Positions 12,845 through 37,668 are shown, numbered from the stretch's first letter. The stretch: 64,000 bases of DNA from Candidatus Parcubacteria bacterium (GCA_023130975.1 JAGMAD010000003.1:129692-193691), one strand, 5' to 3'. The notes: generated by a model from the sequence alone, not told the origin. Translations and numbers: made by a program.

Positions 12845-13486
12845 ATGGATCCTTTAACTTTAATTTTAATCATTGTAATATTTCTTTTTTCTGTTGTCAT
12901 CCACGAAGTGGCTCACGGAACAATGGCAAATATCTTAGGAGATCCAACTGCCAAATATGCTGGTCGGCTTACTTTAAATCCTTTAAAGCATTTAGATCTT
13001 TTTGGTTCTATCATCGTGCCTGGTATTCTAATTTTGACCAGTATGGCTGTTGGTGGCGGAATTATTTTTGGTTGGGCAAAACCAGTTCCTATCAATCCCT
13101 ATAATTTTCGAGACCAAAAATATGGTTCAGCCAAAACAGCTCTGGCTGGTCCGGCAGCTAATATTCTCCTGGCTTTAGTTTTCGGGCTGTTAATAAGATT
13201 TTTGCCTTTTGGAACAGGTTTATTTTCCCAAAATTTGATTTTTGTTTTTGGTTTTATTGTTTGGGTGAATTTACTTTTGGCAATATTTAATCTTTTGCCC
13301 ATTCCGCCCTTGGATGGTTCTCATATTCTTTTTGCTTTTTTACCCCAAAGTATGGAGAAGCTAAAGATGATTTTGGCTCAGTATGGTTTATTTATTTTAC
13401 TTTTTGTTATTTTCTTTTTATTGCATTGGATTATACCAGCAATTAACTATTTATTTTATTTAATCGTCGGCGTCCCATTTTTCTGA
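12845..13486 (+). CDS. site-2 protease family (M50-like) zinc metalloprotease
   Basis: HEVAHG HExxH motif in a polytopic membrane protein of the COG1994 type. Confidence 0.55.
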   Translation: MDPLTLILIIVIFLFSVVIHEVAHGTMANILGDPTAKYAGRLTLNPLKHLDLFGSIIVPGILILTSMAVGGGIIFGWAKPVPINPYNFRDQKYGSAKTALAGPAANILLALVFGLLIRFLPFGTGLFSQNLIFVFGFIVWVNLLLAIFNLLPIPPLDGSHILFAFLPQSMEKLKMILAQYGLFILLFVIFFLLHWIIPAINYLFYLIVGVPFF

Positions 13487-13528
13487 TTGACATTGTCTTC
13501 AACATCTGCTAAATTTAAAAACATCAAT

Positions 13529-13957
13529 ATGCCTACAATCCATCAATTAATTAAAAAGAAGAGAAAAACGACCAAGAAAGCCAATAAAAGGCCGGCTTTG
13601 AGTTTTGGCTTTAATGTTTTAAAGAATAGGCCTAAAAAATATCCTTCTCCATTAAAAAGAGGCGTTTGCCTTAAAGTATTCACTGTCACTCCCAGAAAAC
13701 CAAATTCTGCCTTAAGAAAAGTAGCCCGAGTCCGGTTAAGTAATGGAATGGAAGTTACTGCTTATATTCCAGGCATTGGCCATAACTTACAGGAGCATTC
13801 AGTTATTTTAATCAGGGGAGGGAGAGTTAAGGATTTGCCAGGAGTAAGGTATCATGTGGTTCGCGGTGTTCTTGATACTGGCGGAGTGGAAGAAAGAAAA
13901 CAGGGAAGAAGCAAGTATGGAACAAAGAAACAGAAAACATCAACACCAAAGACATAA
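13529..13957 (+). CDS. rpsL: 30S ribosomal protein S12
   Basis: [10 protein letters not shown] start, PNSALRKV and [13 protein letters not shown] motifs, and a Lys-rich C-terminal tail. Confidence 0.85.
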
Positions 13958-14125
13958 GACCTATTGCGAAATAATTTTTCGTTACGAAATCACAAAATTT
14001 TGAGCGAAAATTGTGAAGAATGAGGAGGTTATACATTGTATAGCCGACGAATTTTGAACAATTTGCAGCCAAAATTTTGGGATTGCAGTAGAAAAGGTTA
14101 TTTTGCAAGAGGTCTATAATAAATT

Positions 14126-14587
14126 ATGCGCGGAAAAATAAAAAAAAGAAAAATTTTGCCTGATTCTGTTTATGATAATATTATAGTCGCTCAGTTTATT
14201 AATCAGGTAATGCGTAAAGGTAAAAAAACAATTGCTATAAAAATTATTTATGGCGCTTTTGATATTATGAAAGAGAAAACAAAAAAAGAGCCCTTAGATG
14301 TTTTTGATTTAGCTATCCAAAATGCTTCTCCTTTACTTGAGGTAAAATCAAAAAGAATTGGAGGAGCTGTTTATCAAGTTCCCAGAGAAGTGAAAGGAGA
14401 GAGAAGAATAAGCTTGGCTATGCGCTGGATTATTGCTGCTGCCAAATCAAAAAAAGGAAAGACAATGAAAGAGAAGTTAGCTGAAGAACTAATCGCTGCT
14501 TCCAAAAACGAAGGTTCAGCTATCAAAAAGAAGAATGACACTCATCGTATGGCCGAGGCAAACCGCGCTTTTGCTCATTTTGCCTAA
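14126..14587 (+). CDS. rpsG: 30S ribosomal protein S7
   Basis: S7 sequence pattern ([24 protein letters not shown]). Confidence 0.85.
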
Positions 14588-14766
14588 AATATGATGGAAA
14601 CATTAGATTTTATTTTCGCTTTTATCCTGGTCTTACTTTTAATATACCTTTTACTAATTTGGTAAAAACTTGTTTTGGAATTTAATAAAAGGTTGATTCC
14701 TTGACAAATAAATAAAAAACTTTTAACTTTAAACTATAACTTTTCACTTTTCAATTCGAGCTTTGC

Positions 14767-14803
14767 GAGAATCAAGGTTCTTGCTGAAAGCGAGGTTCTT
14801 ATT
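14767..14803. repeat. AGAACCTTG-family repeat unit (inverted)
   Basis: gagaatcaaggttcttgctgaaagcgaggttcttatt upstream of fusA. Confidence 0.55.
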
Positions 14804-14824
14804 TTTAACTTTTAACTTAAGCGT

Positions 14825-16930
14825 ATGCGACAGTATCCCATTGAAAAAACAAGAGACATCGGTATTATCGCCCACATTGACGCTGGGAAAACAACCGTAA
14901 CTGAACGGGTGCTTTTTTATACTGGTATTTCTCATAAAATTGGCGAGGTTCATAAAGGAGAAGCAATTATGGACTGGATGGCTCAAGAAAAAGAGAGGGG
15001 AATTACTATCACTTCAGCCGCTACAACTTGCTTCTGGTCTCCAGAAGAGTATGCGGCAAAAGAGAAAACCCAGGAGCATCGTATCAACATTATTGATACA
15101 CCTGGCCATATTGATTTTACTGCTGAAGTTCAGCGCTCCCTTAGGGTCTTAGACGGTGCTGTAGTGGTTTTTGACGGAGTAGCCGGAGTAGAACCCCAAT
15201 CAGAGACAGTTTGGCGTCAGGCAGACAAATTTAAAGTTCCCAGAATTTGCTTTATAAACAAACTTGATAGGATAGGAGCTAACTTTGAAAAAAGTTTTGA
15301 TTCCATTGGCCAAAAACTTTCTCCTAATGCTGTAGCTATGCAAATACCTATTGGCGCTGAGGACAAACTTGAAGGAGTGATTGATTTAATGAAGATGAAA
15401 GCCCTGAAGTTTGAAGGCGAACTTGGTGAAAAAGTAGTAGAAGAAGAAATTCCCCAGGATTTAAAAGAAAAAGCAAAAGAATGGCGGAAGAGAATGGTAG
15501 AGAAAATTGCCAGCGAAGATGAAAAACTTTTAGAAAAATACTTGGCTGAAAAAGAAACCTCAGAACAGGAATTAAGAGAAGTTTTAAGAAAGGCCTGTAT
15601 AGATTATAGACTTATTCCAGTATTTTGCGGTTCAGCTTTAAAAAACAAAGGTGTTCAGCCGCTCTTGGACGCCATTGTTTGTTATCTTCCTTCTCCTGCT
15701 GATCTTCCGCCAATAGTTGGTAAAGATCCTAGAACCAATGAGGAAATGGAGAGAAAATCTGACGACAACGAGCCATTTACCGCTTTGGCCTTTAAAGTTG
15801 CTACTGATCCTTATGTAGGAACTTTAACTTATTTTAGGGTTTATTCAGGCAGTTTAAAAAAGGGCTCTTATGCTTTAAATACTACTACTGGAGAAAAAGA
15901 ACGATTAGGCAGAATTTTAAGAATGCATGCTGCTGAAAGAGAGGAAGTAGATGAACTTTTTGCTGGTGATATTGCTGCTACAGTTGGTTTGAAAAATACT
16001 AGTACTGGCCATACTTTATGCGATGAATCTCATCCTATTATCTTAGAAGAGATTACCTTTCCAGAGCCGGTTATTGGCATTAGAATTGAGCCAAAGACCA
16101 AAGCTGACCAGGAAAAAATGAGTTTGGCTTTAAAAAAACTTTCAGAGGAAGATCCTACTTTTAAGATGAAAAGCGATGAAGAAACCGGCGAAACCATTAT
16201 TTCTGGCATGGGCGAACTTCATCTTGATATACTTTGCGACCGGATGAAAAGAGAATTTAAAGTTGAAGCAAATATGGGCAGGCCTCAAGTGGCTTATAAA
16301 GAAACAATTAGAACCGAAGCAGAAGCAGAAGGCAAATATATCCGCCAGTCAGGTGGCCGGGGCCAGTATGGCCATGTTTGGCTTCGCATAGAACCAAAAG
16401 AAAGAGGAGAAGGTTTTGAATTTATCAATGAGATTAAAGGAGGAGTTATTCCACGTGAATTTATCCCAGCAGTAGAAAAAGGAGTAAAAGGAGCAAAAGA
16501 AAAAGGAGTGGTTGCTGGTTATCCAGTGATAGATATTTCTGTTGCTCTTTATGACGGCTCTTTTCATGAGGTTGATTCTTCAGAAATAGCTTTTAAAATT
16601 GCTGCTTCTATTGCTTTTCAAGAAGGGGTTAAGAGAGCAAAGCCAGTACTCCTTGAGCCGATTATGAAATTAGAAGTAGTTATTCCTGAAGATTTCTTAG
16701 GAGATGTAATTGGGGATTTGAGCGCCAGAAGAGGAAAAATAGAAGAAACCAAAGAGCGATTGAATATGAAAATAATTGATACTAAAATTCCTTTAGCAGA
16801 GATGTTTGGCTACGCTACTTCTCTCCGTTCTTTGACAGAAGGAAGGGGAACGTTTACTATGGAGTTTGACCATTACGAACCAGTACCAGAAAACATTGCC
16901 CAAGAAATTATAGAAGGAAAGAGGAAATAA
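14825..16930 (+). CDS. fusA: elongation factor G
   Basis: [10 protein letters not shown]1 motif and the full EF-G domain series. Confidence 0.9.
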
Positions 16931-17020
16931 TGTTTGACATCAGCGCTGTTTTAAATATAAAATAAGAGTAGAAATTCTTGAAGAGTCGGTTTTGAGGCAT
17001 AAATAAAAAACTACAAAAGT

Positions 17021-17391
17021 ATGCCTAATCAAAATTTTTCTAAATTTCATCATATTGTAGCGGTAACATGCTTAATAGAGAATAATGGGCGTTTTTTATT
17101 AATAAAAAGGAGCTCCAAAGAAGATTATTATGGTGGAAAATGGGTTTTTCCAGGAGGGAAGGTAGAAAGAGAAGAAGACGTAATCCAGACGTTACTTAGA
17201 GAAATAAAAGAAGAAACCGGGCTTGAAACTCAAAGAAAAGTCGCTTTTTAAGGAGTTATTCATTTTCAAGAAAAGATGGTTCCTCAACAACTGGTTTGGT
17301 ATTTTGTCTAAAGTATAAAAGCGGTAAGATAAAACTTGATAAAAATTCAGAAGATTTTGCATGGATTCTACCAGAAGAGATTTATAATTAA
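17021..17391 (+). pseudogene. NUDIX hydrolase with a frameshift (likely at the T-run near 17243-17248)
   Basis: Nudix box GGKVEREEDVIQTLLREIKEETGL in frame 2 ends at 17251. The C-terminal part (LVFCLKYKSGKIKLDKNSEDFAWILPEEIYN) continues in frame 1 to 17391. Confidence 0.5.
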
Positions 17392-17556
17392 GATACTATG
17401 CCCGGCATAGAAACACATATTAAGAATGCCCAGGAGGCAATTCAGAGAAATCTTTTTATGGACATTAAAAAACTTTCAAGAAGTGTCTAATTTGTAGGCA
17501 GTCAAACCCTTTTTTCGGGGTTGATTTTTTGAGAGAAGTTTGCTAATATAAAATAT

Positions 17557-17790
17557 ATGGCAACTTTATCTAAAAACTTAATAGTATCTAAAGAATTCAT
17601 TCAAAAAAGAGGAATGGTTTTTTTGCCTTTGGCGGAATATGAGAAAATAAAAGAAAAAATAGAAAGATTAGAAAGAGAAAGAAAATTTTCACAAGAGGAA
17701 GCAGAGATCCTAAGAATTATTGCGGAGGGAGAGAGAGAATATAAAGAAGGGAAATTAAAGCCGATAAAGTCCTTAGCCGAGATTAAATAA
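17557..17790 (+). CDS. putative antitoxin of a type II TA pair
   Basis: 77-aa coiled/charged protein that ends 2 nt before the RelE/ParE-like toxin gene. Confidence 0.4.
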   Translation: MATLSKNLIVSKEFIQKRGMVFLPLAEYEKIKEKIERLERERKFSQEEAEILRIIAEGEREYKEGKLKPIKSLAEIK

Positions 17791-17792
17791 TT

Positions 17793-18050
17793 ATGATTAT
17801 TTATCCAACTTCCCGATTTAGAAAATCTTTTAAGAAATTGCCGAGCACCATACAGAAAAAGGCTAAATTGAGAGACAAAATATTTAGGAAAGATCCTTTT
17901 GCTTTAAATCTTCAAACTCATAAACTTAAAGGCAAACTAAAAGATTACTGGGCATATTCGGTTAACGATGATTATCGCGTTCTCTTCCGTTTTATAAATG
18001 AAGACAGCGCGATTTATTTTAATATCGGTACCCATGAGATTTATAAATAA
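17793..18050 (+). CDS. RelE/ParE (YafQ-like) type II toxin
   Basis: HKLKGKLKDYWAYSVNDDYRVLFRF ... IGTHEIY pattern typical of RelE/ParE. Confidence 0.65.
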   Translation: MIIYPTSRFRKSFKKLPSTIQKKAKLRDKIFRKDPFALNLQTHKLKGKLKDYWAYSVNDDYRVLFRFINEDSAIYFNIGTHEIYK

Positions 18051-18090
18051 AAAATTTGATTTTTTTGGAGAAGTTTGTTAAAGTAAAAAT

Positions 18091-18384
18091 ATGAGTTTAG
18101 ATGAAATCAAAAATTTAATAAAAATAGATGGGGGAAAGTTTATTATAGTGGAAAATGGGGAACCAGTATTAATGGTAATGAGTTTTGATGACTATAAAAA
18201 AATAATAGGGAATTCTGAAAAAATTTCTTCGCAACAGTCAAATTCTAATTCTGAAAAAGAAATCCCAGGAGCTCAAGAAGTTCAAGAATTTAATTCAGGG
18301 AGCGATAACGAATATGCAGAAACAGTTGAAAAAGCATCTCCCCAAACCGAGGAATCATTAAAAATTGAGGATTTGCCAGTTTGA
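18091..18384 (+). CDS. Phd/YefM-like antitoxin domain protein (orphan)
   Basis: N-terminal GEPVLMVMSFDDYKKI matches the Phd/YefM fold signature. The C-terminal half is acidic and low-complexity. Confidence 0.5.
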   Translation: MSLDEIKNLIKIDGGKFIIVENGEPVLMVMSFDDYKKIIGNSEKISSQQSNSNSEKEIPGAQEVQEFNSGSDNEYAETVEKASPQTEESLKIEDLPV

Positions 18385-18470
18385 TTTAGATAATAGATAA
18401 TAGATGATAGATAAGTATTGACATAATTCTTTTATTTTATTACCATTAAAATATACAAAAATTAAAAAAT

Positions 18471-18599
18471 ATATAAAATAAAGATTTAGATAATAGAGAT
18501 TAGAATTTAGGTAATTTTTTATCTAACATCTAACATCTAATATCTAAAATCCAATTATGGCTGAGAAAGAAAAATTTGAAAGAGGAAAAACCCATCTTA
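18471..18599 (+). repeat. copy A of a 129-bp perfect duplication (tuf promoter, leader and first 14 codons)
   Basis: Identical to 19688-19816. Confidence 0.85.
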
Positions 18600-19627
18600 T
18601 AGGTTTAGTTTTAGCATTCATTATAACTATATTTATCTTTAATAGTTTTTATAGTACAATTTTTGCAGAAGATTCTTCATTAGAAAATATCTTCGCTCTC
18701 GTTACAATTGGAGATATAATCCAGAATCAATCACTATATGAAGGAAAGATTGTAACTATTTCTGGTAAATATGGTGGTTGGGGGCACAAAGAAGGAAACA
18801 TTCCCGGATGTGAGAGTGGACCACCAGTAACCAGAAGTGATTGGTGTATCTATGACGAAACTGGTTGTATTTATGTAGCAGGAGCGGAAATTTTAGAGTG
18901 TGGTGAATATACAACTGAGATAGACATCTATAAATATTGCTTTAATAACTTTGACCCTTCTGGAGGAGAAAGTATGGGTACTGATATGATAATAAAAGGA
19001 AGAGTTAAGATTAGCGATAAAGGTGTTACTTATGTAGGAAGAATAGTATCTCCAGTTAAACCTATTGAAATAGTAATACCAGAAGATAAAATGCCAAAAG
19101 AAATACAAGATGCAACGATAAAGTCAGTTACAATTAAACCTGGAGAGCCAATCAGAGTAAAAGCAGAGCGAGAAGAAGACGGGAAGATTATAAAAGATGT
19201 AACAGTGACTGAATATGAATCACCAATTAAACTAAATCTGACAACTAAAGATGGCTTAAAAGAAGTCGTTGTAAGGCAAGGAACGGATGAGCTAAAATTG
19301 ATTTCCAAAAATGTAACTGCAAGAACTAAAAATGAATTAGAAGTAGAAGAGGACACAATATACTTAAAGACAAAAACAGGGAGAAAAGAAATTAAGATAA
19401 TGCCTGATGTTGCATCACAAAAAGCAATAGAGAAACAAGAATTACACTATGTAGAAAGTATTGAACTTAAGGATGTTGGTAAGCCCATTTATGAAGTTAA
19501 TGGAGTTAAAAAAGTAAAATTATTATGGTTTATTCCAATTGACATGAGCATAAAAACAGAAATAGATGCTGAAACGGGAAAAGTTGAAAAGATTAAAAAG
19601 CCTTGGTGGAGTTTCTTAGCTTGGTAA
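18557..19627 (+). CDS. chimeric ORF: EF-Tu N-terminal 14 aa fused to a TM-anchored extracytoplasmic beta-rich protein
   Basis: The first 43 nt are identical to tuf ([14 protein letters not shown]). A TM helix and a ~320-aa Lys/Glu/Val-rich domain of unknown function follow. Confidence 0.5.
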   Translation: MAEKEKFERGKTHLIGLVLAFIITIFIFNSFYSTIFAEDSSLENIFALVTIGDIIQNQSLYEGKIVTISGKYGGWGHKEGNIPGCESGPPVTRSDWCIYDETGCIYVAGAEILECGEYTTEIDIYKYCFNNFDPSGGESMGTDMIIKGRVKISDKGVTYVGRIVSPVKPIEIVIPEDKMPKEIQDATIKSVTIKPGEPIRVKAEREEDGKIIKDVTVTEYESPIKLNLTTKDGLKEVVVRQGTDELKLISKNVTARTKNELEVEEDTIYLKTKTGRKEIKIMPDVASQKAIEKQELHYVESIELKDVGKPIYEVNGVKKVKLLWFIPIDMSIKTEIDAETGKVEKIKKPWWSFLAW

Positions 19628-19687
19628 ATTCAACTTAGATAGGGCATTTCTTAAATTAACAAAGAATATAAAATAGAATATAAAATA

Positions 19688-19816
19688 GAATATAAAATAA
19701 AGATTTAGATAATAGAGATTAGAATTTAGGTAATTTTTTATCTAACATCTAACATCTAATATCTAAAATCCAATTATGGCTGAGAAAGAAAAATTTGAAA
19801 GAGGAAAAACCCATCT
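19688..19816 (+). repeat. copy B of the 129-bp duplication (native tuf promoter/5' end)
   Basis: Identical to 18471-18599. It is preceded by 3x AATATAAAATAG tandem repeats. Confidence 0.85.
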
Positions 19817-20975
19817 TAATATTGGTACTATTGGTCACGTAGACCATGGTAAAACCACTCTTACAGCAGCTATTCTGCATGTTTTAAGGTTAAAAGGTCT
19901 TAAGGCATCAGAGAAAGCAGTGGAGCAAATTGATTCTGCTCCAGAAGAAAAAGCCCGTGGTTTAACTATTAACATTGCCCATTTAGAGTATGAGACAGAT
20001 AAAAGACACTATGCTCATATTGATTGTCCGGGCCATGCTGATTACATTAAGAATATGGTTACTGGTGCCGCTCAAATGGACGGAGCAATTTTAGTGGTTT
20101 CGGCTGCTGATGGTGTTATGCCTCAAACCAGAGAGCATATTTTGCTTGCTCGCCAAGTAGGATTATCTCAAATAGTGGTGTTTTTAAATAAATGCGATAC
20201 TGTAGATGATCCTGAGATAATTGATTTAGTTGAGTCAGAAGTAAAAGAGCTTTTAAAGAAATACGAATTTCCAGGAGATGAAATCCCAATTGTTCGCGGT
20301 TCAGCTCTTAAAGCCCTGGATGTAAAATCAGCTGACGATGAAGCCGCCAAACCAATTTTGGATTTAGTTAAAGCAGTAGATGATTACTTTCCTGAACCAA
20401 CTCGGGATATTGATAAACCATTTTTAATGGCTGTTGAGGATGTTTTCTCTATTGCTGGAAGAGGAACTGTTGCTACTGGCAGGATTGAGCGAGGAATAGT
20501 TCATCCAAACGATGAGGTAGAAATTGTTGGTTTTAAACCTACTCAAAAAACAGTGGCAGTGAGCGTGGAAATGTTTAATAAGATGCTTGATGAAGGAAGA
20601 GCCGGTGATAATGTCGGAATTTTACTTCGCGGACTCAAGAAAGAAGAGGTGGAAAGAGGACAAGTTTTAGCAAACCCCGGCAGCATTACTCCTCATACTG
20701 AATTTGACGGTGAAATTTATGTTTTAACCAAAGAAGAAGGCGGAAGACATTCTCCTTTTTTTGCCGGTTATAAGCCGCAATTTTACATTCGAACTACTGA
20801 TGTTACTGGAGATGTTGCTTTGCCAGAAGGGACAGAAATGGTTATGCCTGGAGATACTGTTAATCTAAAAGTTAAATTAATAGCTCCGGTTGCCCTTCAA
20901 GAAAAACAAAGATTTGCTATAAGAGAAGGAGGCAAGACCGTAGGCGCAGGAGTAGTGACGAAGATCATTAAGTAA
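19776..20975 (+). CDS. tuf: elongation factor Tu
   Basis: [18 protein letters not shown] and NKCD motifs; 399 aa. Confidence 0.9.
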
Positions 20976-21009
20976 GTTAAAAGTAGAAAGTTAAAAGTTA
21001 AAAATAAAC

Positions 21010-21348
21010 GTGGTTGTCAAAAAGAAAGCAGTTGAAGAAGAAACAAAGTCCAAGCTTCGCATTAAGTTGCGGGCTTATGACCATAAGGTTATTGATAATA
21101 GCGCTCGACAGATTGTTGAGGCGGCTCTGCGCTATGGTGTTGAAGTTTATGGACCCATTCCTTTACCGACTGAAATACATAAATATACAGTCAATAGGGC
21201 TTCTTTTATTCACAAAGACAGCCGGGAGCAGTTTGAAATGAGAATTCATAAACGGTTGATTGATATTCTCAATCCTAATCCGAAAGTTATTGATGCTTTG
21301 ACCAGTTTGACTCTTCCAGCTGGGGTAGAAATTGAAATCAAGATGTAA
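21010..21348 (+). CDS. rpsJ: 30S ribosomal protein S10 (GTG start)
   Basis: [21 protein letters not shown] matches the S10 core. Confidence 0.85.
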
Positions 21349-21465
21349 AATTATAATCCGAATCTACGAATGCCACGAATAAAATTCATCAATATTTATA
21401 TGCATATTTTATTCGATATTTTAGAAACATAAGAGTTTTGTTACAATAAATTTGGATTGCCACAA

Positions 21466-21489
21466 AAACTGGGCAATTGCCCAGTTTTT
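21466..21489 (+). terminator. terminator-like perfect palindrome between rpsJ and rplC
   Basis: aaaCTGGGCAATTGCCCAGttttt. Confidence 0.35.
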
Positions 21490-21504
21490 CATTAGCATTA
21501 TTTT

Positions 21505-22107
21505 ATGAAGTTTATCTTGGCAAAAAAATTAGAAATGTCACAGATGTTTGATGAAAAAGGCAAGGTCATTCCAGTGACCTTAATTGAAGCCGGACCTTGT
21601 TTTATCACTCAAATAAAAAACAAAGACAAGGATAAATATGAAGCAGTTCAGCTTGGTTTTGAAAAAATAACCAAACAGAAGAAAATAAAAAAAACAATGA
21701 AAGGAAAAGAATATAAATACATCAGAGAATACAAAATTGACGAGAACATTTCTCGTCAATTAAAGGTGGGAGATGAAATCAATGTTTCTGTTTTTCAAGA
21801 AGGGGATAAAGTAAAAATTTCTGGAATTTCTAAAGGAAAAGGATTTCAGGGAGCAGTAAAAAGATGGGGATTTCATGGAAGAAACGCTACTCATGGAGTT
21901 AAGCATGAACAAAGAACATTAGGTTCAGTTGGAAGTTCTTATCCAGAAAGAGTAATTAAAGGAAAAAAAATGCCCGGTAGAATGGGTGCCGAGCGAGTCA
22001 CAGTTAAAAATTTAAAAATAGCAAAAATTGACAAAGAGAATAATCTATTAGCAGTGAAAGGCGCAATACCAGGCCGACGCGGCACATTGCTTGAAATTAG
22101 AGGATAA
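21505..22107 (+). CDS. rplC: 50S ribosomal protein L3
   Basis: L3 pattern (GKGFQGAVKRWGFHG). Confidence 0.85.
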   Translation: MKFILAKKLEMSQMFDEKGKVIPVTLIEAGPCFITQIKNKDKDKYEAVQLGFEKITKQKKIKKTMKGKEYKYIREYKIDENISRQLKVGDEINVSVFQEGDKVKISGISKGKGFQGAVKRWGFHGRNATHGVKHEQRTLGSVGSSYPERVIKGKKMPGRMGAERVTVKNLKIAKIDKENNLLAVKGAIPGRRGTLLEIRG

Positions 22108-22216
22108 TTTCCAGAATTTCTAATTTCTAATAAATTTCTAATTCTTTAATTTTTAATTGAAAATTGGAGCATTGAAAATTGATTGAAAATTGATAATTGA
22201 TAATTGAAAATTTATC
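22108..22216. repeat. heptamer tandem-repeat spacer: (AATTTCT)n then (ATTGAAA)n
   Basis: 7-bp periodic AT repeats between rplC and rplD. Confidence 0.6.
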
Positions 22217-22858
22217 ATGGAAATCGAAACTTATAACCAAAATGGAGAAAAAGTAGGAAAAGCAGAACTTCCCGACGAAATATTCGGTTTAGATTTTAGT
22301 CCTGATTTGGTTCATCAGGTTGTTGTTTCGCAAATGGCAAATCGAAGGCAAGTTAGTGCTCATACTAAAGACAGGAGTGAGGTTCGTGGAGGTGGCAGGA
22401 AACCCTGGAGACAAAAAGGCACTGGTAGAGCAAGACATGGTTCTATCCGTTCACCTTTATGGAAAGGAGGAGGCGTAACCTTTGGTCCGACTAAAGAAAG
22501 AGATTTTAAAAAAATAATTCCTAAAAAAATGAAAAGAAAGGCTCTTTTTATGGTTTTAAGCCAAAAGGTAAAAGACAATGAATTGGTTGTCTTAGATGAG
22601 CTGAAGATTGAGAAACCGAAGACAAAAATAGTAAAAGAAATAATCCAGAATCTGAAATCAAAAATTAAAAACATTAAAACAGAAAGTTTTCTAATCACTT
22701 TACCAAAGATGGATAAGAATATTATTTTATCAACCAGAAACATTCCTAAAATAGCTACTATTCAAGCAAAAGAATTAAATTGTCTTGATATTTTAAATTA
22801 TAAATATTTGATGCTTCCTAAAGAAGCAATTGCAGTAATAAAGGAAACCTTTTTATGA
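22217..22858 (+). CDS. rplD: 50S ribosomal protein L4
   Basis: L4 pattern (GGGRKPWRQKGTGRAR). Confidence 0.85.
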   Translation: MEIETYNQNGEKVGKAELPDEIFGLDFSPDLVHQVVVSQMANRRQVSAHTKDRSEVRGGGRKPWRQKGTGRARHGSIRSPLWKGGGVTFGPTKERDFKKIIPKKMKRKALFMVLSQKVKDNELVVLDELKIEKPKTKIVKEIIQNLKSKIKNIKTESFLITLPKMDKNIILSTRNIPKIATIQAKELNCLDILNYKYLMLPKEAIAVIKETFL

Positions 22859-23346
22859 AAATATTAGATTTTTTTAAAAAAAAGAAAAAACCGGAAGTTA
22901 AAGAAGAAGTAAAACCGAAAGAGGAGGTAAAAAAGGAAGTAAAAGTAAAAAAAGAGGTAAAAAAGCCGCCGAAAGTTAGTGTTTTAAAACCAAAACCCGC
23001 CTTCGTTAAAAGAACCTCGACTGAGCTCGGTCGAAGTCCTTCGGCGGGCAAGGAGAAAAAGGTTGATTTGGCTTGGAAGGTTTTAGAGACACCTCATATT
23101 TCTGAAAAAGCCACTGACTTAACAAAGCAAAATAAGTATGTTTTTAGAGTTTTTCCTAAATCAAATAAAAAAGAAATAAAAAAAGCAGTGGAAGATATTT
23201 ATGGGATAGATGTTTTGAATGTTAAAATTATTAAAATTCCCAGAAAGAAGAAAATGAGAGGCAGGGTTTCTGGCTGGAAAAAGGGCTATAAAAAAGCAAT
23301 TGTGAAAGTAAAAGAAGGCCAGAAGATTGAATTATTACCAAGATAA
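22855..23346 (+). CDS. rplW: 50S ribosomal protein L23 with a ~60-aa Lys-rich N-terminal extension
   Basis: The core AWKVLETPHISEKAT is preceded by KKKKKPEVKEEVKPKEEVKK. The extension contains a GC-rich structured insert at 22993-23050. Confidence 0.8.
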   Translation: MKILDFFKKKKKPEVKEEVKPKEEVKKEVKVKKEVKKPPKVSVLKPKPAFVKRTSTELGRSPSAGKEKKVDLAWKVLETPHISEKATDLTKQNKYVFRVFPKSNKKEIKKAVEDIYGIDVLNVKIIKIPRKKKMRGRVSGWKKGYKKAIVKVKEGQKIELLPR

Positions 23347-23350
23347 ACCT

Positions 23351-24220
23351 ATGAAAAAGTATAAACCAACAACACCAGGAAGGAGAGGAATGACCAAGGT
23401 TGAATCTTCTCAATTAACTAAGAAAAAACCTGAAAAAGGTTTGCTTTCAGTAATTAAAAAAAGGGGAGGAAGAAATCTAAAAGGAAGAATCACAATCAGG
23501 CATAGGGGCGGCGGAGCAAAAAGGATGTATAGACATATTGATTTTGGTCAGGAGAAAGTTAATATTTCAGCAAAGGTCATTGCTTTAGAATATGATCCCA
23601 ATCGTTCTGCTTTTATTGCTCTTTTGGAATATCAGGATAAACCCCCCACCACTTTTCAGGGAAAAGTGGTGGGGGGTAAAGAAAAAAGATATATTTTGGC
23701 TCCTCAAGGATTAAAAGTGGGCGATGAAATCATTATTTCAGAAAAAGCAGGACTCAAGCCGGGAAATAGAATGAAATTAAAAAATATTCCAGTCGGAACT
23801 TTGATCTATAATGTTGAACTTGAGCAGGATAAAGGAGGAGTTATCGTAAAAGGAGCGGGCACCACAGCAAAGGTTTTGGCTCAGGAAGGAAGATATACTC
23901 ATCTTGTTTTTCCTTCTTCTGAAATTAGGAAAGTGCCCAAGGAATGTTTTGCTTCAATAGGCATAGTTTCCAATCCCGAACATAAGTATGTTACAATAGG
24001 AAAGGCAGGTAGAACACGTTATAAAGGCAAAAGGCCCCATGTTAGGGGAACGGCAATGAATCCTGTTGACCATGCTCATGGCGGCGGAGAAGGAAGAACT
24101 GGGATTGGACTAAAACATCCGAAAACTGCTTGGGGTAAGCCAGCTTTAGGGGTAAAAACAAGAAAGAAAAAATGGACAGACAAACTTATTATTAAAAGAA
24201 GAAAAAAGAAAAAGAAATAA
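23351..24220 (+). CDS. rplB: 50S ribosomal protein L2 carrying a 13-aa in-frame palindromic insertion
   Basis: L2 motifs (KPTTPGRRGMT, GGGEGR). The insertion KPPTTFQGKVVGG is encoded by a perfect hairpin at 23641-23677. Confidence 0.85.
   Translation: MKKYKPTTPGRRGMTKVESSQLTKKKPEKGLLSVIKKRGGRNLKGRITIRHRGGGAKRMYRHIDFGQEKVNISAKVIALEYDPNRSAFIALLEYQDKPPTTFQGKVVGGKEKRYILAPQGLKVGDEIIISEKAGLKPGNRMKLKNIPVGTLIYNVELEQDKGGVIVKGAGTTAKVLAQEGRYTHLVFPSSEIRKVPKECFASIGIVSNPEHKYVTIGKAGRTRYKGKRPHVRGTAMNPVDHAHGGGEGRTGIGLKHPKTAWGKPALGVKTRKKKWTDKLIIKRRKKKKK
23641..23677. repeat. GC-rich perfect hairpin (CCCCCCACCACTTTT-loop-AAAAGTGGTGGGGGG) inside the rplB ORF
   Basis: The 15-nt arms are identical to the 16S h44 tip (51882-51896 / 51971-51985). 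Confidence 0.8.
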
Positions 24221-24223
24221 CCT

Positions 24224-24346
24224 AATAAATTTTCAATTTTCAATTTTCAATTTTCAATGAATTTTCAATGATTTAATTTTCAATTAGAAATTAAAGAATT
24301 AGAAATTTAATAGAAATTAGAAATTAGAAATTAGAAATTTTGGATT
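24224..24346. repeat. heptamer tandem-repeat spacer: (TTTTCAA)n then (AGAAATT)n
   Basis: Reverse-complement arrangement of the 22108-22216 element. Confidence 0.6.
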
Positions 24347-25196: not shown

Positions 25197-25274
25197 CTAA
25201 ATAGATATTAAATGATGGATTATAGATGTTAGTTAATTATCTAAAATCTAAAATCTAATATCTAAAATCTAACT

Positions 25275-25958
25275 TTGAGTCATAGAGTTCATCCAAAAGC
25301 ATATAGATTGAGAGAAACAAACGACTGGAATTCTCGATGGCAAGCTAAAAGAAATCTCCCGGAATATTTAAAGGAGGATTTTATAATAAGAGAGTTTTTA
25401 GAAAAAAAATTAAAAGATTCCGGAGTTCAGAATATTGAAATTGAAAGATTTTCCGGTAAAGTCAATATTATTATTAACACTTCAAAACCAGGTTTTATTA
25501 TTGGTCGTGGCGGAAAAGGAGCAGAAGAACTAAAAAGAGATTTAGAAAAGAAAATCATTAAAAGTTATAAATTATCTATTAATAAAAAGAAAACGGCTTC
25601 TTTAACTCAAGGAAAAAAAGAGATGAGGATTGAAATTAGAGAGATAAGAAATCCTTGGGCACATTCAACAATTGTTGCTCAATGGATTGCTCAACAAATT
25701 GAAAAAAGAATGCGTTATCGGAGAACGCTTAAACAGGCATTAAGCAAGGTTGTGGCCAATAAAGAAATAAAAGGAGTGAGAGTAGAAGTTTCCGGTCGTT
25801 TAGACGGGACCAAAATTGCTCGGCGAGAATGGCTTCAGGTCGGTCATCTTCCTCGTCAAACTTTAAGAGCAAAGATTGATTATGGAACAGCAGCGGCTCA
25901 CTGTACTTATGGAATAGTAGGAGTGAAAGTTTGGATATATAAGGGCGAACAGTTTTGA
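25275..25958 (+). CDS. rpsC: 30S ribosomal protein S3 (TTG start)
   Basis: KH domain GFIIGRGGKGAEEL and the S3 C-terminal domain. Confidence 0.85.
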   Translation: MSHRVHPKAYRLRETNDWNSRWQAKRNLPEYLKEDFIIREFLEKKLKDSGVQNIEIERFSGKVNIIINTSKPGFIIGRGGKGAEELKRDLEKKIIKSYKLSINKKKTASLTQGKKEMRIEIREIRNPWAHSTIVAQWIAQQIEKRMRYRRTLKQALSKVVANKEIKGVRVEVSGRLDGTKIARREWLQVGHLPRQTLRAKIDYGTAAAHCTYGIVGVKVWIYKGEQF

Positions 25959-26653: not shown

Positions 26654-26659
26654 TAATAT

Positions 26660-26846
26660 AAGAACCTGCCTCGCTAATGCTCGGCAGAACCTTGATTCCT
26701 TCGGAATTAAGAACCTGCCTCGCCAATGCTCGGCAGAACCTTGATTCCTGCCTGTCGGCAAGGCAGGCGCTAATGTATAAATATATAAGAACCTGCCTCG
26801 CTAATGCTCGGCAGAACCTTGAATGCTTCGCATTTAATCTTGAATT
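26660..26846 (+). repeat. three tandem AGAACCTTG-family units forming a composite ~150-bp 5'-region shared with rpmE
   Basis: Units at 26660-26695, 26709-26744 and 26787-26822. The stretch 26709-26856 is ~95% identical to the reverse complement of 45450-45600. Confidence 0.75.
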
Positions 26847-27999: not shown

Positions 28000-28550
28000 T
28001 TAAACTAAAAGACAAATATATTAAAGAAGTAGTGCCGGCTATGAAAAAAAAGTTTGAATACAAGAACAGTATGGCTGTTCCTAAAATTGAGAAAGTAGTG
28101 ATTAATAATAGTTTTGGCAGAATGATAATAGATAAAACATCTGATGAGAAAAAAAAAATTAAAGAAGCAATTATACAGGATTTGTCTTTAATCTGCGGTC
28201 AGCGTCCAGTTTTAACTAAAGCAAAGAAGTCCATTTCTACTTTTAAAGTTCGTCAAGGTATGGAAATTGGGGCAAAAGTTACTTTGAGAAAGAAAAAAAT
28301 GTATGATTTCTTAGATAGGTTAATTCATATTACTCTTCCTCGCTCTCGTGATTTTCGAGGTATTGACCCTAAATCAATTGATGAAAAAGGAAATTTAACC
28401 ATCGCTATCAAAGAACATATTTCTTTTCCAGAAGTATCGCCAGAGAAGACAAGGTTTCTTTTTGGATTTGAAATAACTGTGGTGACTACTGCCAAAGATA
28501 AAAAACAGGGATTAGAATTATTAAAATTGTTGGGATTCCCGATTAAATAG
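27996..28550 (+). CDS. rplE: 50S ribosomal protein L5
   Basis: L5 pattern. The start overlaps the rplX stop (ATGA). Confidence 0.8.
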   Translation: MIKLKDKYIKEVVPAMKKKFEYKNSMAVPKIEKVVINNSFGRMIIDKTSDEKKKIKEAIIQDLSLICGQRPVLTKAKKSISTFKVRQGMEIGAKVTLRKKKMYDFLDRLIHITLPRSRDFRGIDPKSIDEKGNLTIAIKEHISFPEVSPEKTRFLFGFEITVVTTAKDKKQGLELLKLLGFPIK

Positions 28551-28644
28551 ATATTAGATGATAGATTATAGATTATGGATAATAGATGATGAAAAATAAA
28601 AATCCAAAATCCAACATCTAATATCCAACATCTAAAATCCAATT

Positions 28645-28830
28645 GTGGCTACACAATCTCAAATTGCAAAATCAGAGAAAAAATCTAAGTTTAGTTCCCG
28701 AATTGTTCGGAGATGTTTTAGGTGTGGCAGAAAAAGAGGGTATATGAGAAAATTTGGATTGTGTCGGATTTGTTTTCGGGAAATGGCAAATAAAGGATTG
28801 ATACCAGGAGTAAAGAAATCATCGTGGTAA
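28645..28830 (+). CDS. rpsN: 30S ribosomal protein S14 type Z (zinc-binding, 61 aa, GTG start)
   Basis: [23 protein letters not shown]. Confidence 0.8.
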
Positions 28831-37552: not shown

Positions 37553-37571
37553 AAAATCTTTAAAATTCTAT

Positions 37572-37605: not shown

Positions 37606-37668
37606 CTAATTATTTCGTTCGGTTAAAATACAAAAGTGAACTTTTGTATTTTACCTTCACTCATAATT

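What the first reader, a model, noticed from the sequence alone, without database searches (positions are those of the whole stretch)
16931..19775. Insertion hotspot between fusA and tuf: NUDIX pseudogene, RelE/ParE TA pair, orphan Phd/YefM antitoxin, duplicated promoter modules
fusA and tuf are normally adjacent in the str operon, but here ~2.8 kb intervenes. It holds a frameshifted NUDIX gene (17021-17391), an antitoxin plus RelE/ParE-like toxin pair (17557-18050), and a Phd/YefM-like orphan antitoxin (18091-18384). It also holds the chimeric tuf-fusion gene described above. The two antitoxin genes are each preceded by nearly identical ~35-bp promoter/leader modules (17521-17556 vs 18051-18090: TTTTTGAGAGAAGTTTGcTAATATAAAATATATG). 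This suggests cassette-like duplication, and points to TA-stabilised mobile DNA inserted into a core translation operon.
Basis: partly seen in the sequence, partly recalled or inferred. Interest (0 to 1): 0.6.

Follow-up and report, generated by a model that had tools for sequence, protein, structure and literature searches.

The report
Gene landing pad between fusA and tuf
In this tiny-genome (Parcubacteria) bacterium, the gap between the elongation-factor genes fusA and tuf holds one conserved small gene nobody has described, and around it three foreign acquisitions (a dead archaeal NUDIX gene, a toxin-antitoxin pair, and a secreted-protein gene fused to the first 14 codons of tuf), two of which sit behind a copied start region of the gene next to them.

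Summary
2,845 bp separate fusA (ends 16930) from tuf (starts 19776), and every listed ORF exists.

- **The 'orphan Phd/YefM antitoxin' (18091-18384) is not mobile DNA.** Every one of the 68 other loci recovered that carry a homologue (15 genomic, 53 metagenomic) has it on the same strand in the fusA-tuf interval, or next to whichever of the two genes the contig reaches. Its divergence tracks EF-Tu, and no locus has a toxin gene directly after it. The N-terminal domain is weakly YefM-like, followed by an acidic linker and a near-invariant C-terminal tip LKIEDLP[VLF]. About 640 cluster representatives exist, all unannotated.
- **The 'duplicated promoter module' is that gene's own promoter.** One copy now drives the RelE/YafQ-type toxin-antitoxin pair.
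- **The same design recurs at tuf.** A 129-bp perfect repeat (tuf leader plus 14 codons) flanks a secreted PepSY-like gene. A related organism has the same fusion.
- **The NUDIX gene is a true pseudogene.** It has a 1-nt deletion and a nonsense codon. It is about 80% identical in DNA to intact genes on archaeal-type contigs.
- **No mobility genes are present.** The pieces differ in origin and age.

In Patescibacteria, fusA-tuf is the most insertion-prone junction of this operon stretch, and three different toxin-antitoxin families have landed at the same spot.

The parts
14825..16930 (+). fusA (EF-G), left border of the interval
   Evidence: 701-aa ORF. Pfam EF-G domains in the precomputed annotation.
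16934..16963 (+). Promoter-like site TTGACA-18-TAAAAT, just after the fusA stop and ahead of the NUDIX pseudogene
   Evidence: Consensus scan, 11 of 12 matches. Function not tested.
17021..17490 (+). NUDIX hydrolase pseudogene. Frameshift in the T run at 17245-17249 and nonsense TAA at 17389-17391. Homology to intact genes on archaeal-type contigs spans 17038-17490.
   Evidence: Intact 153-154-aa homologues at 74-79% aa identity. About 80% DNA identity, with both lesions mapped. Donor-type contigs carry PriS and eL8/L7Ae. Lesions are identical in independent assemblies.
17505..17532 (+). Terminator-like hairpin AACCCTTTTTTCGGGGTT plus a T run, abutting the -35 of module copy 1
   Evidence: Terminator scan. 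Fold -13.2 kcal/mol.
17521..17559 (+). Module copy 1, the resident gene's promoter now in front of the antitoxin. -35 TTGATT at 17521-17526, 17-nt spacer, extended -10 TGcTAATAT at 17541-17549, ATG at 17557 (leaderless geometry).
   Evidence: 97% identical to the module in front of the phd-like gene in L085 and L088/L089. Repeat statistics.
17557..17790 (+). 77-aa putative antitoxin
   Evidence: Its stop codon ends 2 nt before the toxin start. No family reaches a cut-off. Its C-terminal 30 aa resemble the C-terminus of the ORF directly upstream of a 41%-identical toxin in L047, which reads as a ribbon-helix-helix antitoxin by eye; 4 of 1000 shuffles reach the score.
17793..18050 (+). 85-aa RelE/StbE (YafQ/HigB-like) toxin
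   Evidence: TIGR02385 33.0 bits against a cut-off of 27.9. Pfam YafQ 29.1, HigB 26.6 and ParE 22.2 are just below their cut-offs.
18056..18093 (+). Module copy 2, in front of the resident gene. -35 TTGATT at 18056-18061, TGtTAAAGT at 18076-18084, ATG at 18091.
   Evidence: Its TAAAGT variant is shared with the module in L091.
18091..18384 (+). Resident 97-aa str-operon protein. Weakly YefM-like N-terminal domain, acidic disordered linker, near-invariant C-terminal LKIEDLPV.
   Evidence: Family alignment A1. 639 cluster representatives. Synteny 15/15 and 53/53. Divergence tracks EF-Tu, rho 0.78. AlphaFold2 model.
18418..18446 (+). Promoter-like site TTGACA-17-TACCAT in the interval downstream of the resident gene, outside the 129-bp repeat
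   Evidence: Scan, 10 of 12. By eye, relatives have a TTGACT...TAGAAT motif at the matching place in the sequence printed; no scan was run on them.
18471..18599 (+). Repeat copy 1: -10-like ATATAAAAT, hairpin leader with 7-mer arms (about 18483-18553), ATG at 18557 and tuf codons 1-14
   Evidence: Exact 129-bp identity with 19690-19818. Hairpin -22.6 kcal/mol, z = -3.9, folded on copy 2, which is identical over the hairpin.
18557..19627 (+). Chimeric 356-aa gene. EF-Tu residues 1-14, a hydrophobic signal or anchor segment (14-32), an ectodomain with the 'GCESGPPVTRSDW..DETGCIYV' motif, and a PepSY-like C-terminal domain ending KPWWSFLAW.
   Evidence: A related organism has the same kind of fusion (P0035).
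19663..19699 (+). 12-bp tandem GAATATAAAATA x3 at the left edge of repeat copy 2 (two units in L090)
19690..19818 (+). Repeat copy 2: hairpin leader plus the true tuf start
19776..20975 (+). tuf (EF-Tu), intact, right border of the interval
   Evidence: 399-aa ORF. Pfam domains.

Best explanation
The interval is a composite: one old resident gene and three independent acquisitions, not one inserted element.

**1. Resident gene (shown).** In a large clade of Parcubacteria the str operon reads fusA, then a small acidic protein, then tuf. The window's 97-aa 'Phd-like' ORF is that protein. It has its own extended -10 promoter placed so that the mRNA would be leaderless.

**2. Acquisitions (shown).**
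- A NUDIX gene, most similar to intact genes on archaeal-type contigs, landed just after the fusA stop and has since decayed.
- A RelE/YafQ-type toxin-antitoxin pair sits behind the resident gene's promoter. A second, slightly diverged copy of that promoter plus ATG precedes the resident gene.
- A secreted or membrane-anchored PepSY-like protein gene is fused in frame to tuf codons 1-14. It is followed by a second copy of the tuf leader and 14 codons, so tuf itself stays intact.

**3. How it works (inferred).** Both living insertions follow one rule. The newcomer joins at or just after the resident gene's start, and the resident 5' module is present twice. The newcomer therefore gets a strong promoter and start codon, and the essential gene is not damaged. 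For the chimera, the EF-Tu N-terminus ([13 protein letters not shown], net charge +1) serves as the charged n-region of a signal peptide or anchor.

**4. Likely mechanism (inferred).** I favour recombination, either illegitimate or anchored by homology in the conserved flanks, with junctions in A/T-rich -10-like microhomology (ATATAAAA). Later exchange or gene conversion between the copies would follow. That would explain the perfect 129-bp identity here against only 43 bp in the related organism. No dedicated mobility enzyme is needed. Toxin-antitoxin addiction may help retention but is not shown.

**5. Resident protein (inferred).** It most likely acts as a dimeric YefM-fold scaffold whose flexible acidic arms end in a short docking motif for a conserved partner. 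Its dosage would be tied to the elongation factors. It is not a classical antitoxin.
For: **Resident gene**
- Homologues lie between fusA and tuf, on the same strand, in 15/15 species genome loci and 53/53 metagenome loci.
- Close relatives L082 and L099 have fusA, this gene and tuf, and nothing else.
- N-domain identity tracks EF-Tu identity (Spearman 0.78, n=50) and EF-G identity (0.66).
- There are 639 cluster representatives at E<=1e-3, nearly all 63-136 aa.
- The C-terminal D-L-P is invariant and the preceding LKIE is conserved in at least 90% of 28 sequences.

**Promoter module**
- The module lies in front of this gene in L085 and L088/L089.
- The copy in front of the window's antitoxin is 97% identical to those.

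**NUDIX**
- DNA identity is about 80% over 17038-17490, and both lesions are mapped.
- The donor-type operon lies on contigs that also carry PriS and eL8.

**Toxin-antitoxin pair**
- The toxin passes TIGR02385.
- The pair is absent at this position in L082, L085 and L099.
- Other toxin-antitoxin families occupy the same fusA-to-resident-gene slot: HicBA directly upstream of the resident gene in L089, and DUF2283, a RelE-like nuclease and a HepT fragment in L116.

**Chimera**
- The 129-bp exact repeat is mapped.
- P0035 in L090/L091 begins with the same 13 EF-Tu residues followed by a hydrophobic segment, and sits between the resident gene and tuf.
- All 43 other homologues I inspected begin differently, most with a typical MKK-type signal peptide.
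- In L090 the upstream leader is the clade's usual type and only the downstream leader matches the window's.
- Apart from one 12-bp repeat unit, the chimera-tuf spacer is 132/137 identical between the window and L090. The last 120 nt of the chimeric gene are 74% identical, and three other spacer comparisons in this clade give 49-70%.

**Hotspot control and artefact check**
- The structure is the same on 5 contigs, per-run assemblies are identical, and unitigs break inside the repeat.
Against: - No transcript, protein or read-level data were available. Promoters, leaderless starts and co-transcription are inferred from sequence alone.
- The recombination mechanism is inferred from end products. 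A trans-acting site-specific recombinase cannot be excluded.
- The antitoxin has no HMM support.
- The YefM-like fold of the resident protein is weak. Pfam gives 24.9 bits against 29.8. The best Foldseek hits are antitoxins but with E above 0.3. hhalign gives E of 0.005-0.012.
- The resident gene is missing from several species with 70-80% EF-G identity and short fusA-tuf gaps, so losses or a patchier history must be assumed.
- The archaeal assignment of the NUDIX donor contigs rests on two marker genes that score below their equivalog cut-offs.
Confidence: 0.75

Rival explanations
1. One reading: one toxin-antitoxin-stabilised mobile element carrying the NUDIX gene, the toxin-antitoxin pair, an orphan antitoxin and the chimeric gene inserted as a unit between fusA and tuf.
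For: All four genes lie together on one strand between two core genes. Toxin-antitoxin pairs are typical cargo of mobile DNA (general knowledge). Close relatives lack most of this DNA.
Against: - The 'orphan antitoxin' is ancestral at the site in 68/68 other loci.
- There is no integrase or transposase, no terminal inverted repeats and no tRNA target.
- The parts differ in age: the NUDIX gene is decayed, the module copies are 85% identical, and the tuf repeat is 100% identical.
- On the 2.2-2.3-kb contigs L090/L091, the chimera occurs with neither the NUDIX gene nor the RelE pair next to the resident gene.
- Base composition is not distinct from the genome.
Confidence: 0.05
2. The resident 97-aa protein is a working solo antitoxin (an 'anti-addiction' or decoy module) that neutralises RelE/Doc-type toxins in trans. 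Toxin-antitoxin cassettes would then accumulate beside it because of that functional link or because of sequence homology.
For: - There is weak Phd/YefM similarity in the correct register, and the best structural neighbours are all YefM/RelB-type antitoxins.
- Three different toxin-antitoxin families sit directly upstream of it in three lineages.
- From my own knowledge, the toxin partner of Phd (Doc) targets EF-Tu, and tuf is the next gene.
Against: - No toxin gene follows it in any of 68 loci.
- It fails the family cut-offs.
- The invariant C-terminal DLP tip is unlike known toxin-binding tails of Phd/YefM (my own knowledge; not tested).
- The neighbouring toxin-antitoxin pairs belong to unrelated families, each with its own antitoxin.
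- 65 of the 68 other loci have no toxin-antitoxin genes between fusA and the resident gene.
Confidence: 0.12
3. A dedicated site-specific system, with a recombinase encoded elsewhere, inserts promoterless cassettes at the 5' ends of highly expressed genes. The duplicated 5' modules would then be attachment sites, attL and attR.
For: - Two insertions share the design of resident 5' module, insert, resident 5' module, resident gene.
- A related case exists in L010, where about 75 bp of the fusA 3' end is duplicated around a 235-bp insert.
- The chimera's right flank is nearly identical in two lineages.
Against: - No recombinase gene was seen in the ORFs I examined, which cover window 13000-23000.
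- The repeats differ widely in length (39, 43 and 129 bp) and share no core sequence.
- Only one small clade among 114 loci has the tuf duplication.
- Junctions lie in generic A/T-rich -10-like motifs.
Confidence: 0.08
4. Assembly artefact: the 129-bp repeat caused a chimeric join, and the tuf-fused ORF does not exist in any cell.
For: The data are short-read metagenome assemblies. Unitigs break at the repeat.
Against: - The same structure is on 5 contigs from different assemblies.
- A related organism has the same fusion with only a 43-bp repeat, in two separate assemblies.
- The reading frame is open through the junction for 356 and 287 codons.
Confidence: 0.03

Closest known systems
Chromosomal type II toxin-antitoxin loci of the RelE/ParE superfamily (relBE, yefM-yoeB, dinJ-yafQ), which behave as small horizontally moving islets
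   Same: A two-gene operon with the antitoxin first, only 2 nt between the two genes, and an 85-aa basic toxin that passes the RelE/StbE model. It shows presence/absence differences among close relatives and has no flanking mobility genes.
   Different: It sits inside the str operon, behind a copied promoter of the neighbouring resident gene. The antitoxin matches no curated family.
Phd/YefM antitoxin family (PF02604)
   Same: The resident 97-aa protein aligns weakly, in register, with the helix-strand-strand-helix core of Phd. It has a disordered C-terminal half.
   Different: It scores below the gathering thresholds and lacks the first strand. It has no adjacent toxin in 68 loci, a fixed position between fusA and tuf, and a family-specific near-invariant C-terminal LKIEDLP[VLF] tip.
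Recombination and gene conversion between duplicated tuf sequences (tufA/tufB in enterobacteria); homology-facilitated illegitimate recombination during DNA uptake. Both are from my own knowledge.
   Same: Two copies of the tuf 5' sequence are kept identical (129 bp). One side of the insert is anchored in conserved tuf sequence and the other junction lies in microhomology.
   Different: Only the first 14 codons and the leader are duplicated. The upstream copy is fused to an unrelated secreted-protein gene. The process itself was not observed.
Acidic flexible tails ending in a short hydrophobic docking tip: the SSB C-terminal tail (DDD[IL]PF) and the archaeal/eukaryotic ribosomal stalk P1/P2 tails that bind elongation factors. 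Both are from my own knowledge and offered as analogy only.
   Same: A putative dimerisation domain, then a long acidic disordered linker, then a conserved tip ending D-L-P-hydrophobic. The gene lies between the two elongation-factor genes.
   Different: There is no sequence homology to SSB or stalk proteins, and no OB fold. Some members carry one extra residue after the tip, which argues against strict recognition of the C-terminal carboxylate. No binding was tested.
PepSY-domain secreted proteins ending in KPWWSFLA, found in small-genome archaea and bacteria
   Same: The C-terminal 120 aa of the chimera align with more than 40 such proteins. The Pfam PepSY score is 23.3 here and 28.0 in P0035, against a cut-off of 24.
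   Different: Those proteins begin with their own start, most with a typical MKK-type signal peptide. Here, and in P0035, the n-region is the first 13-14 residues of EF-Tu.

Membership tests
RelE/ParE-superfamily type II toxin (85-aa ORF) | Profile match above a curated cut-off | tested here: met
   TIGR02385 RelE_StbE scores 33.0 bits against 27.9. Pfam YafQ 29.1/30, HigB 26.6/27 and ParE 22.2/23 are just below their cut-offs.
RelE/ParE-superfamily type II toxin (85-aa ORF) | Small partner gene directly upstream in the same operon | tested here: met
   The 77-aa ORF ends at 17790 and the toxin starts at 17793.
RelE/ParE-superfamily type II toxin (85-aa ORF) | Growth inhibition or mRNA cleavage that the partner neutralises | not testable with these tools
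   Needs expression experiments.
Type II antitoxin (77-aa ORF) | Match to a known antitoxin family | tested here: not met
   The best hit is Pfam PhdYeFM at E=0.056. NCBIfam gives nothing.
Type II antitoxin (77-aa ORF) | Toxin-binding C-terminal segment shared with partners of homologous toxins | tested here: inconclusive
   The C-terminal 30 aa align with the C-terminus of the ORF directly upstream of the 41%-identical toxin in L047. 4 of 1000 shuffles reach the score.
Phd/YefM antitoxin (97-aa ORF) | PF02604 or TIGR01552 above the cut-off | tested here: not met
   24.9 bits against 29.8, and 14.9 against 20.8.
Phd/YefM antitoxin (97-aa ORF) | YefM/Phd fold of the N-terminal domain | tested here: inconclusive
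   The AlphaFold2 N-domain has pLDDT 81-90 and a helix-strand-strand-helix layout. The Foldseek top hits are YefM/RelB-type antitoxins, but with E>=0.36. A PDB sequence search found nothing.
Phd/YefM antitoxin (97-aa ORF) | Cognate toxin gene adjacent, normally downstream | tested here: not met
   The downstream gene is tuf (or the chimera, then tuf) in all 68 other loci where the contig reaches it, and the upstream gene is usually fusA.
NUDIX hydrolase | NUDIX domain and Nudix box GX5EX7REUXEEXGU | tested here: met
The box GKVEREEDVIQTLLREIKEETGL can be read directly from the translation.
NUDIX hydrolase | Intact reading frame | tested here: not met
   A 1-nt deletion (T5 against T6) and TAC changed to TAA, relative to intact 154-aa homologues. 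The lesions are identical in independent assemblies.
Mobile element (IS, transposon, integrative element or integron cassette) | Transposase or integrase gene, terminal inverted repeats, tRNA or att target | tested here: not met
   No such domains in the five main ORFs scanned, and no further large ORF in the interval. No inverted repeat bounds the interval or any of the three inserts. No tRNA. No Rfam family. attC sites were not searched for specifically.
Mobile element (IS, transposon, integrative element or integron cassette) | Direct repeats flanking the insert | tested here: inconclusive
   Direct repeats exist, 39 nt at 85% and 129 nt at 100%. They are copies of the resident genes' 5' ends, of unequal length and with no shared core.
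PepSY-like secreted protein family (chimeric ORF) | PepSY domain and conserved C-terminal KPWWSFLA | tested here: inconclusive
   PepSY scores 23.3 bits against 24 here and 28.0 in P0035. The C-terminal motif is shared with dozens of homologues.
PepSY-like secreted protein family (chimeric ORF) | N-terminal export signal | tested here: inconclusive
   The 19-residue Kyte-Doolittle maximum is 2.34 at residues 14-32, preceded by a net +1 segment. No dedicated signal-peptide predictor was available and export was not tested.

The most novel reading that the evidence does not exclude
The conserved small protein encoded between fusA and tuf is a previously unrecognised, Parcubacteria-specific partner of the translation elongation machinery. 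In this reading it is a dimer whose two flexible acidic arms end in the near-invariant LKIEDLP[VLF] tip and dock onto EF-Tu, EF-G or the ribosome. That would be functionally analogous to the factor-recruiting tails of archaeal and eukaryotic stalk proteins, and would be built from an antitoxin fold.
Probability: 0.12. Interest if true: 0.8.

Novelty: new variant of a known kind. Interest (0 to 1): 0.6.

Why it matters
- **An unannotated core-operon gene.** It separates a real resident gene from look-alike 'antitoxin' annotation. A family of about 640 sequence clusters sits in one of the most conserved operons of bacteria in a major uncultured lineage and has no name or function. Its fixed position next to the elongation-factor genes makes its function directly testable.
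- **A way for streamlined genomes to gain genes.** Newcomers are plugged in behind a copied promoter and start of an essential, highly expressed gene without harming it. In one case the first residues of EF-Tu became part of an export signal.
- **Exchange across domains.** The NUDIX pseudogene is most similar to genes on archaeal-type contigs, which suggests DNA moves between co-occurring small-genome archaea and bacteria.
- **A recurrent landing site.** Three unrelated toxin-antitoxin families have landed at the same intergenic slot in different lineages.

Tried and rejected
- **Is the 77-aa antitoxin a diverged copy of the resident gene?** This would make the toxin-antitoxin insertion an in-frame fusion like the chimera. 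The family HMM gives only 6.4 bits and the pairwise score is reached by 11 of 500 shuffles. DNA homology stops at the ATG. Not shown.
- **Foreign base composition.** The interval has 25-36% GC in 400-nt windows against 34% for the window as a whole, so there is no signal.
- **Known RNAs or tRNA targets.** None were found; one SNORD20 hit at E=1 is chance.
- **PDB sequence search with the family profile.** Nothing found.
- **Literature.** Two full-text searches for a gene between fusA and tuf in these bacteria found nothing relevant.
- **Is the window's tuf-leader hairpin foreign?** Each genome carries several sequence flavours of such hairpins, so this could not be decided.
- **Taxonomy of the chimera's nearest homologues.** P0037 lies on a contig with archaeal-type RNA polymerase subunit genes, but the P0033 and P0034 contexts are uninformative.
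- **Other tuf-5' duplications.** None were found among 114 loci outside this clade.

Full report
**What is there**

The window comes from a low-GC (34%) Patescibacteria/Parcubacteria genome. The same sequence lies on a 192-kb metagenome scaffold, and an identical protein is named 'Candidatus Parcubacteria bacterium' at NCBI. The gene order is rpsL, rpsG, fusA (14825-16930), the 2,845-bp interval, then tuf (19776-20975), rpsJ, rplC and rplD.

Repairing one frameshift and reading through one stop turns the two NUDIX fragments and a downstream 30-aa ORF into a single 156-aa NUDIX protein. It scores Pfam E=1.4e-20 and has an intact Nudix box. The 85-aa ORF passes the NCBIfam RelE/StbE model (33.0 bits against 27.9) and sits just under four related Pfam cut-offs. 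Its 77-aa upstream partner matches no curated family. The 97-aa ORF matches Pfam Phd/YefM only below threshold, at 24.9 bits against 29.8.

The 33-nt module repeat is 85% identical. The gapped local alignment extends it to 39 nt including the ATG, far above shuffles (score 46 against 23 +/- 3, maximum 36). A pattern search found no further copy in the 64-kb window. A 129-bp perfect direct repeat (18471-18599 = 19690-19818) carries the tuf leader and the first 14 codons.

**The key comparative result: the 'orphan antitoxin' is a resident gene**

I fetched 80 species-level loci around EF-G homologues. tblastn and a family HMM then showed that homologues of the 97-aa ORF lie between fusA and tuf, on the same strand, in 15 of those loci and nowhere else in them. 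A separate scan of metagenome contigs with the family alignment returned 53 loci. In every one the gene follows fusA and precedes tuf wherever the contig reaches those genes. The usual spacing is about 5-120 bp before the gene and 55-320 bp after it.

The closest relatives confirm this:
- L082 (81% identical protein) and L099 have fusA, this gene and tuf, and nothing else.
- L085/L086 have the same three genes contiguous.

Identity of the N-terminal domain to the window's protein tracks EF-Tu identity (Spearman 0.78, n=50) and EF-G identity (0.66). That is the pattern expected for vertical inheritance with its neighbours. A profile search of 1.84 billion cluster representatives finds 639 members at E<=1e-3 and 188 at E<=1e-10. 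Nearly all are 63-136 aa and match over the full profile. Sources call them 'hypothetical protein'.

The family has three parts:
- a conserved N-terminal 38 residues, M-x-[LF]-x-E-I-K-N-L-I-x-x-D-G-G-K-F-I-I-V-E-N-G-x-P ... F-x-D-Y-K-K;
- a variable-length, acidic, low-complexity linker;
- a near-invariant C-terminal tip, [EP]-x-L-K-I-E-D-L-P-[VLF].

AlphaFold2 predicts a helix-strand-strand-helix domain (pLDDT 81-90), a disordered linker and a confident tip, with about 80 for the last ten residues. Foldseek's best PDB neighbours are all YefM/RelB-type antitoxins, but none is significant (E>=0.36).

I therefore treat it as a distant, N-terminally shortened derivative of the Phd/YefM fold that is not part of a toxin-antitoxin pair. 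No toxin gene follows it in any of the 68 other loci.

**The 'promoter module' belongs to that resident gene**

The sequence TTGATTTTTTnnGAGAAGTTTGCTAATATAAAA lies directly in front of the resident gene in L085 and in L088/L089. In L085 it starts one base after the fusA stop. It reads as a -35 box TTGATT, a 17-nt spacer and an extended -10 TGnTAATAT, ending 6-9 nt before the ATG. That geometry gives a leaderless or nearly leaderless mRNA, but this is inferred from sequence only.

In the window, the copy in front of the 77-aa antitoxin is 97% identical to those relatives. The copy in front of the resident gene carries the TAAAGT variant that is also seen in L091. The toxin-antitoxin pair therefore now sits behind the resident promoter, and the resident gene keeps a second copy.

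The left junction lies within the -10 region. The 15 nt AAAATATATGGCAAC are shared with the start of an otherwise very different toxin-antitoxin pair in L085. I give that little weight.

**The toxin-antitoxin pair is a lineage-specific arrival at a recurrent slot**

It is absent at this position from L082, L085 and L099. Other lineages have different toxin-antitoxin genes in the same place:
- HicB-HicA directly upstream of the module in L088/L089.
- A DUF2283 protein, a RelE/Barnase-like nuclease and a HepT fragment in L116.
- A HigB-like pair between rpsG and fusA in L085.

The window toxin's best relative among the fetched loci is 41% identical (L047). The ORF directly upstream of it reads as a ribbon-helix-helix antitoxin by eye, and its C-terminal 30 residues resemble those of the window's 77-aa ORF; 4 of 1000 shuffles reach the score. 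This gives modest support to the antitoxin assignment.

**The NUDIX gene is foreign and dead**

They lie in a conserved operon of BpsA_C-domain protein, NUDIX, radical-SAM/SPASM protein and HhH glycosylase. The contigs also encode a PriS-type primase subunit and an eL8/L7Ae ribosomal protein, so they are archaeal-type. Both markers score below their equivalog cut-offs, so the assignment is probable rather than certain.

DNA identity is about 80% from 17038 to the stop at 17490. The window copy has a T5 run where intact genes have T6 (17245-17249), and TAA where they have TAC (17389-17391). Two independent per-run assemblies are base-identical across both lesions. A promoter-like site (16934-16963) and a terminator-like hairpin (17505-17532) bracket it.

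**The chimeric gene**

The 356-aa ORF begins with EF-Tu residues 1-14. It continues with a hydrophobic segment (Kyte-Doolittle 2.34 over residues 14-32) and an ectodomain carrying a 'GCESGPPVTRSDW..DETGCIYV' motif shared with assorted surface proteins. It ends in a PepSY-like domain with the sequence KPWWSFLAW, which is shared with more than 40 proteins.

Of the 44 homologues I inspected, 43 begin differently, most with a typical MKK-type signal peptide. The one exception is P0035 (287 aa). It begins [13 protein letters not shown] followed by a hydrophobic segment, and sits between the resident gene and tuf in L090/L091, a related organism from the same study. The two chimeras share only the 13 N-terminal residues and the C-terminal 120 aa (38% identity). 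Their middle domains differ.

In L090 the leader upstream of the chimera is the type seen in front of tuf in L082, L085 and L088. The leader between the chimera and tuf is the window's type, and the repeat is only 43 bp. Three comparisons between the window and L090 are informative:
- The chimera-tuf spacer is 132/137 identical apart from one 12-bp repeat unit. The last 120 nt of the chimeric gene are 74% identical, and three other spacer comparisons in this clade give 49-70%.
- tuf is most similar between the window and L090, at 93.1%.
- The resident gene's linker (alignment A1) groups L090 with L088/L099 rather than with the window.

I read this as recombinational exchange of the segment next to tuf. 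The perfect 129-bp identity in the window would then be later gene conversion or exchange between the two copies. These steps are inferred.

Among 114 loci with a tuf start, only this clade has the duplication. The hairpin leader is stable (-22.6 kcal/mol, z = -3.9). A different-sequence hairpin occupies the same position in L082.

**Is this a hotspot?**

Among Patescibacteria species loci, gaps of 1 kb or more occur as follows:

| Junction | Loci with a gap of 1 kb or more |
|---|---|
| fusA-tuf | 12/55 |
| rpsG-fusA | 8/58 |
| rpsJ-rplC | 1/41 |
| tuf-rpsJ | 0/49 |
| rplC-rplD | 0/42 |
| rpsL-rpsG | 0/54 |

The median fusA-tuf gap is 393 bp, which largely reflects the resident gene. The two junctions that flank fusA are therefore the permissive ones, and 'hotspot' is a fair description. 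The contents of the large gaps differ between lineages; they include lipoproteins, large secreted proteins and regulators.

**What it is not**

There is no integrase or transposase, no bounding inverted repeats and no tRNA. No Rfam family matches and base composition is not distinctive. The components differ in origin and in age:
- the NUDIX gene looks archaeal and is decayed;
- the toxin-antitoxin pair is intact, with module copies 85% identical;
- the chimera is flanked by a 100% identical repeat, and a version of it occurs in a second lineage, where neither the NUDIX gene nor the RelE pair lies next to the resident gene on the short contigs available.

One composite toxin-antitoxin-stabilised element is therefore unlikely. 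An assembly artefact is also unlikely.

**Mechanism, with steps marked**

Shown:
- the end products, each consisting of a resident 5' module, an insert, a second copy of the module and then the resident gene;
- their distribution among relatives;
- the sequence relationships described above.

Inferred:
- Insertion occurred by illegitimate recombination, or recombination anchored by homology in the conserved flanks, at A/T-rich -10-like microhomology.
- The newcomers are expressed from captured promoters and start codons.
- The EF-Tu N-terminus serves as the charged n-region of an export signal.
- The two tuf 5' copies are kept alike by gene conversion or exchange.
- Recombination between the direct repeats could remove an insert cleanly.

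A contribution of toxin-antitoxin addiction to retention is possible but untested.

For the resident protein I commit to a dimeric scaffold with a C-terminal docking motif, whose dosage is coupled to the elongation factors. The partner is unknown. The resemblance of its tail to SSB or ribosomal-stalk tails is an analogy from memory, not a test.

**Verdict**

The toxin-antitoxin pair and the pseudogene are ordinary in kind. Three things are not ordinary: the conserved unannotated str-operon gene, the repeated capture of a resident gene's 5' module, and the EF-Tu-fused secreted protein found in two lineages. Together they justify an interest score of about 0.6.

Noticed in passing
window 4582-4723, 22092-22213, 24212-24340, 25198-25277, 28544-28647, 43002-43090, 50460-50612, 56703-56810, 56930-57042, 58521-58657; also 18483-18553 and 19702-19772: A genome-wide class of intergenic hairpins whose arms are tandem 7-mers, in flavours such as ATCTAAC, AATTTTC and AGAAATT. 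They usually end a few nt before a start codon inside ribosomal-protein operons. Relatives have hairpins of different sequence at the same positions, so the structure is conserved and the sequence is not.
   Followed up: partly
window 26656-26837, 37568-37652, 40969-41053, 56434-56466: A repeated element of about 55 nt, ATAAGAACCTGCCTCGCTAATGCTCGGCAGAACCTTGA, in at least six copies, three of them clustered (families D4, D8 and D11).
   Followed up: no
window 29219-29293 and 46498-46572: A 75-nt direct repeat, 96% identical, with copies 17 kb apart (family D14). Its nature is unknown.
   Followed up: no
L010:10270-10645: In another Patescibacteria genome, the last 75 bp or so of fusA are duplicated around a 235-bp GC-rich insert full of stem-loops. 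The first 41 nt of the two copies are identical. There is no Rfam match. This is another case of a resident gene end duplicated around an insert.
   Followed up: partly
L085:4952-5770 (also L086, L087): A close relative carries a 73-aa ORF, an 82-aa HigB-like toxin and a 98-aa ORF between rpsG and fusA. This is a toxin-antitoxin insertion at the other fusA junction.
   Followed up: partly
L116:4172-5000 and L089:47-518: Other toxin-antitoxin families lie directly upstream of the resident small gene: a DUF2283 protein, a RelE/Barnase-like nuclease and a HepT C-terminal fragment in L116, and HicB-HicA in L089.
   Followed up: yes
L152-L158: On archaeal-type contigs the intact NUDIX gene is part of a tight, overlapping operon: a BpsA_C/spermine-synthase-like protein, NUDIX, a radical-SAM/SPASM protein and an HhH DNA glycosylase. 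The operon is conserved across several samples.
   Followed up: partly
L016, L050, L054, L065 (fusA-tuf gaps of 1.9-4.7 kb): Other Patescibacteria carry large secreted or lipoprotein genes (348-692 aa, with their own signal peptides) between fusA and tuf. None is fused to tuf.
   Followed up: partly
window 19663-19699 against L090:1360-1385: The 12-bp unit GAATATAAAATA is present three times in the window and twice in L090, right at the left edge of the tuf-leader repeat. It contains a -10-like TATAAAAT.
   Followed up: partly
L091:3-407: In the related organism that carries the other chimera, a 134-aa ORF with no Pfam match, not EF-G, lies upstream of the resident gene. The contig is too short to show where fusA is.
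   Followed up: no
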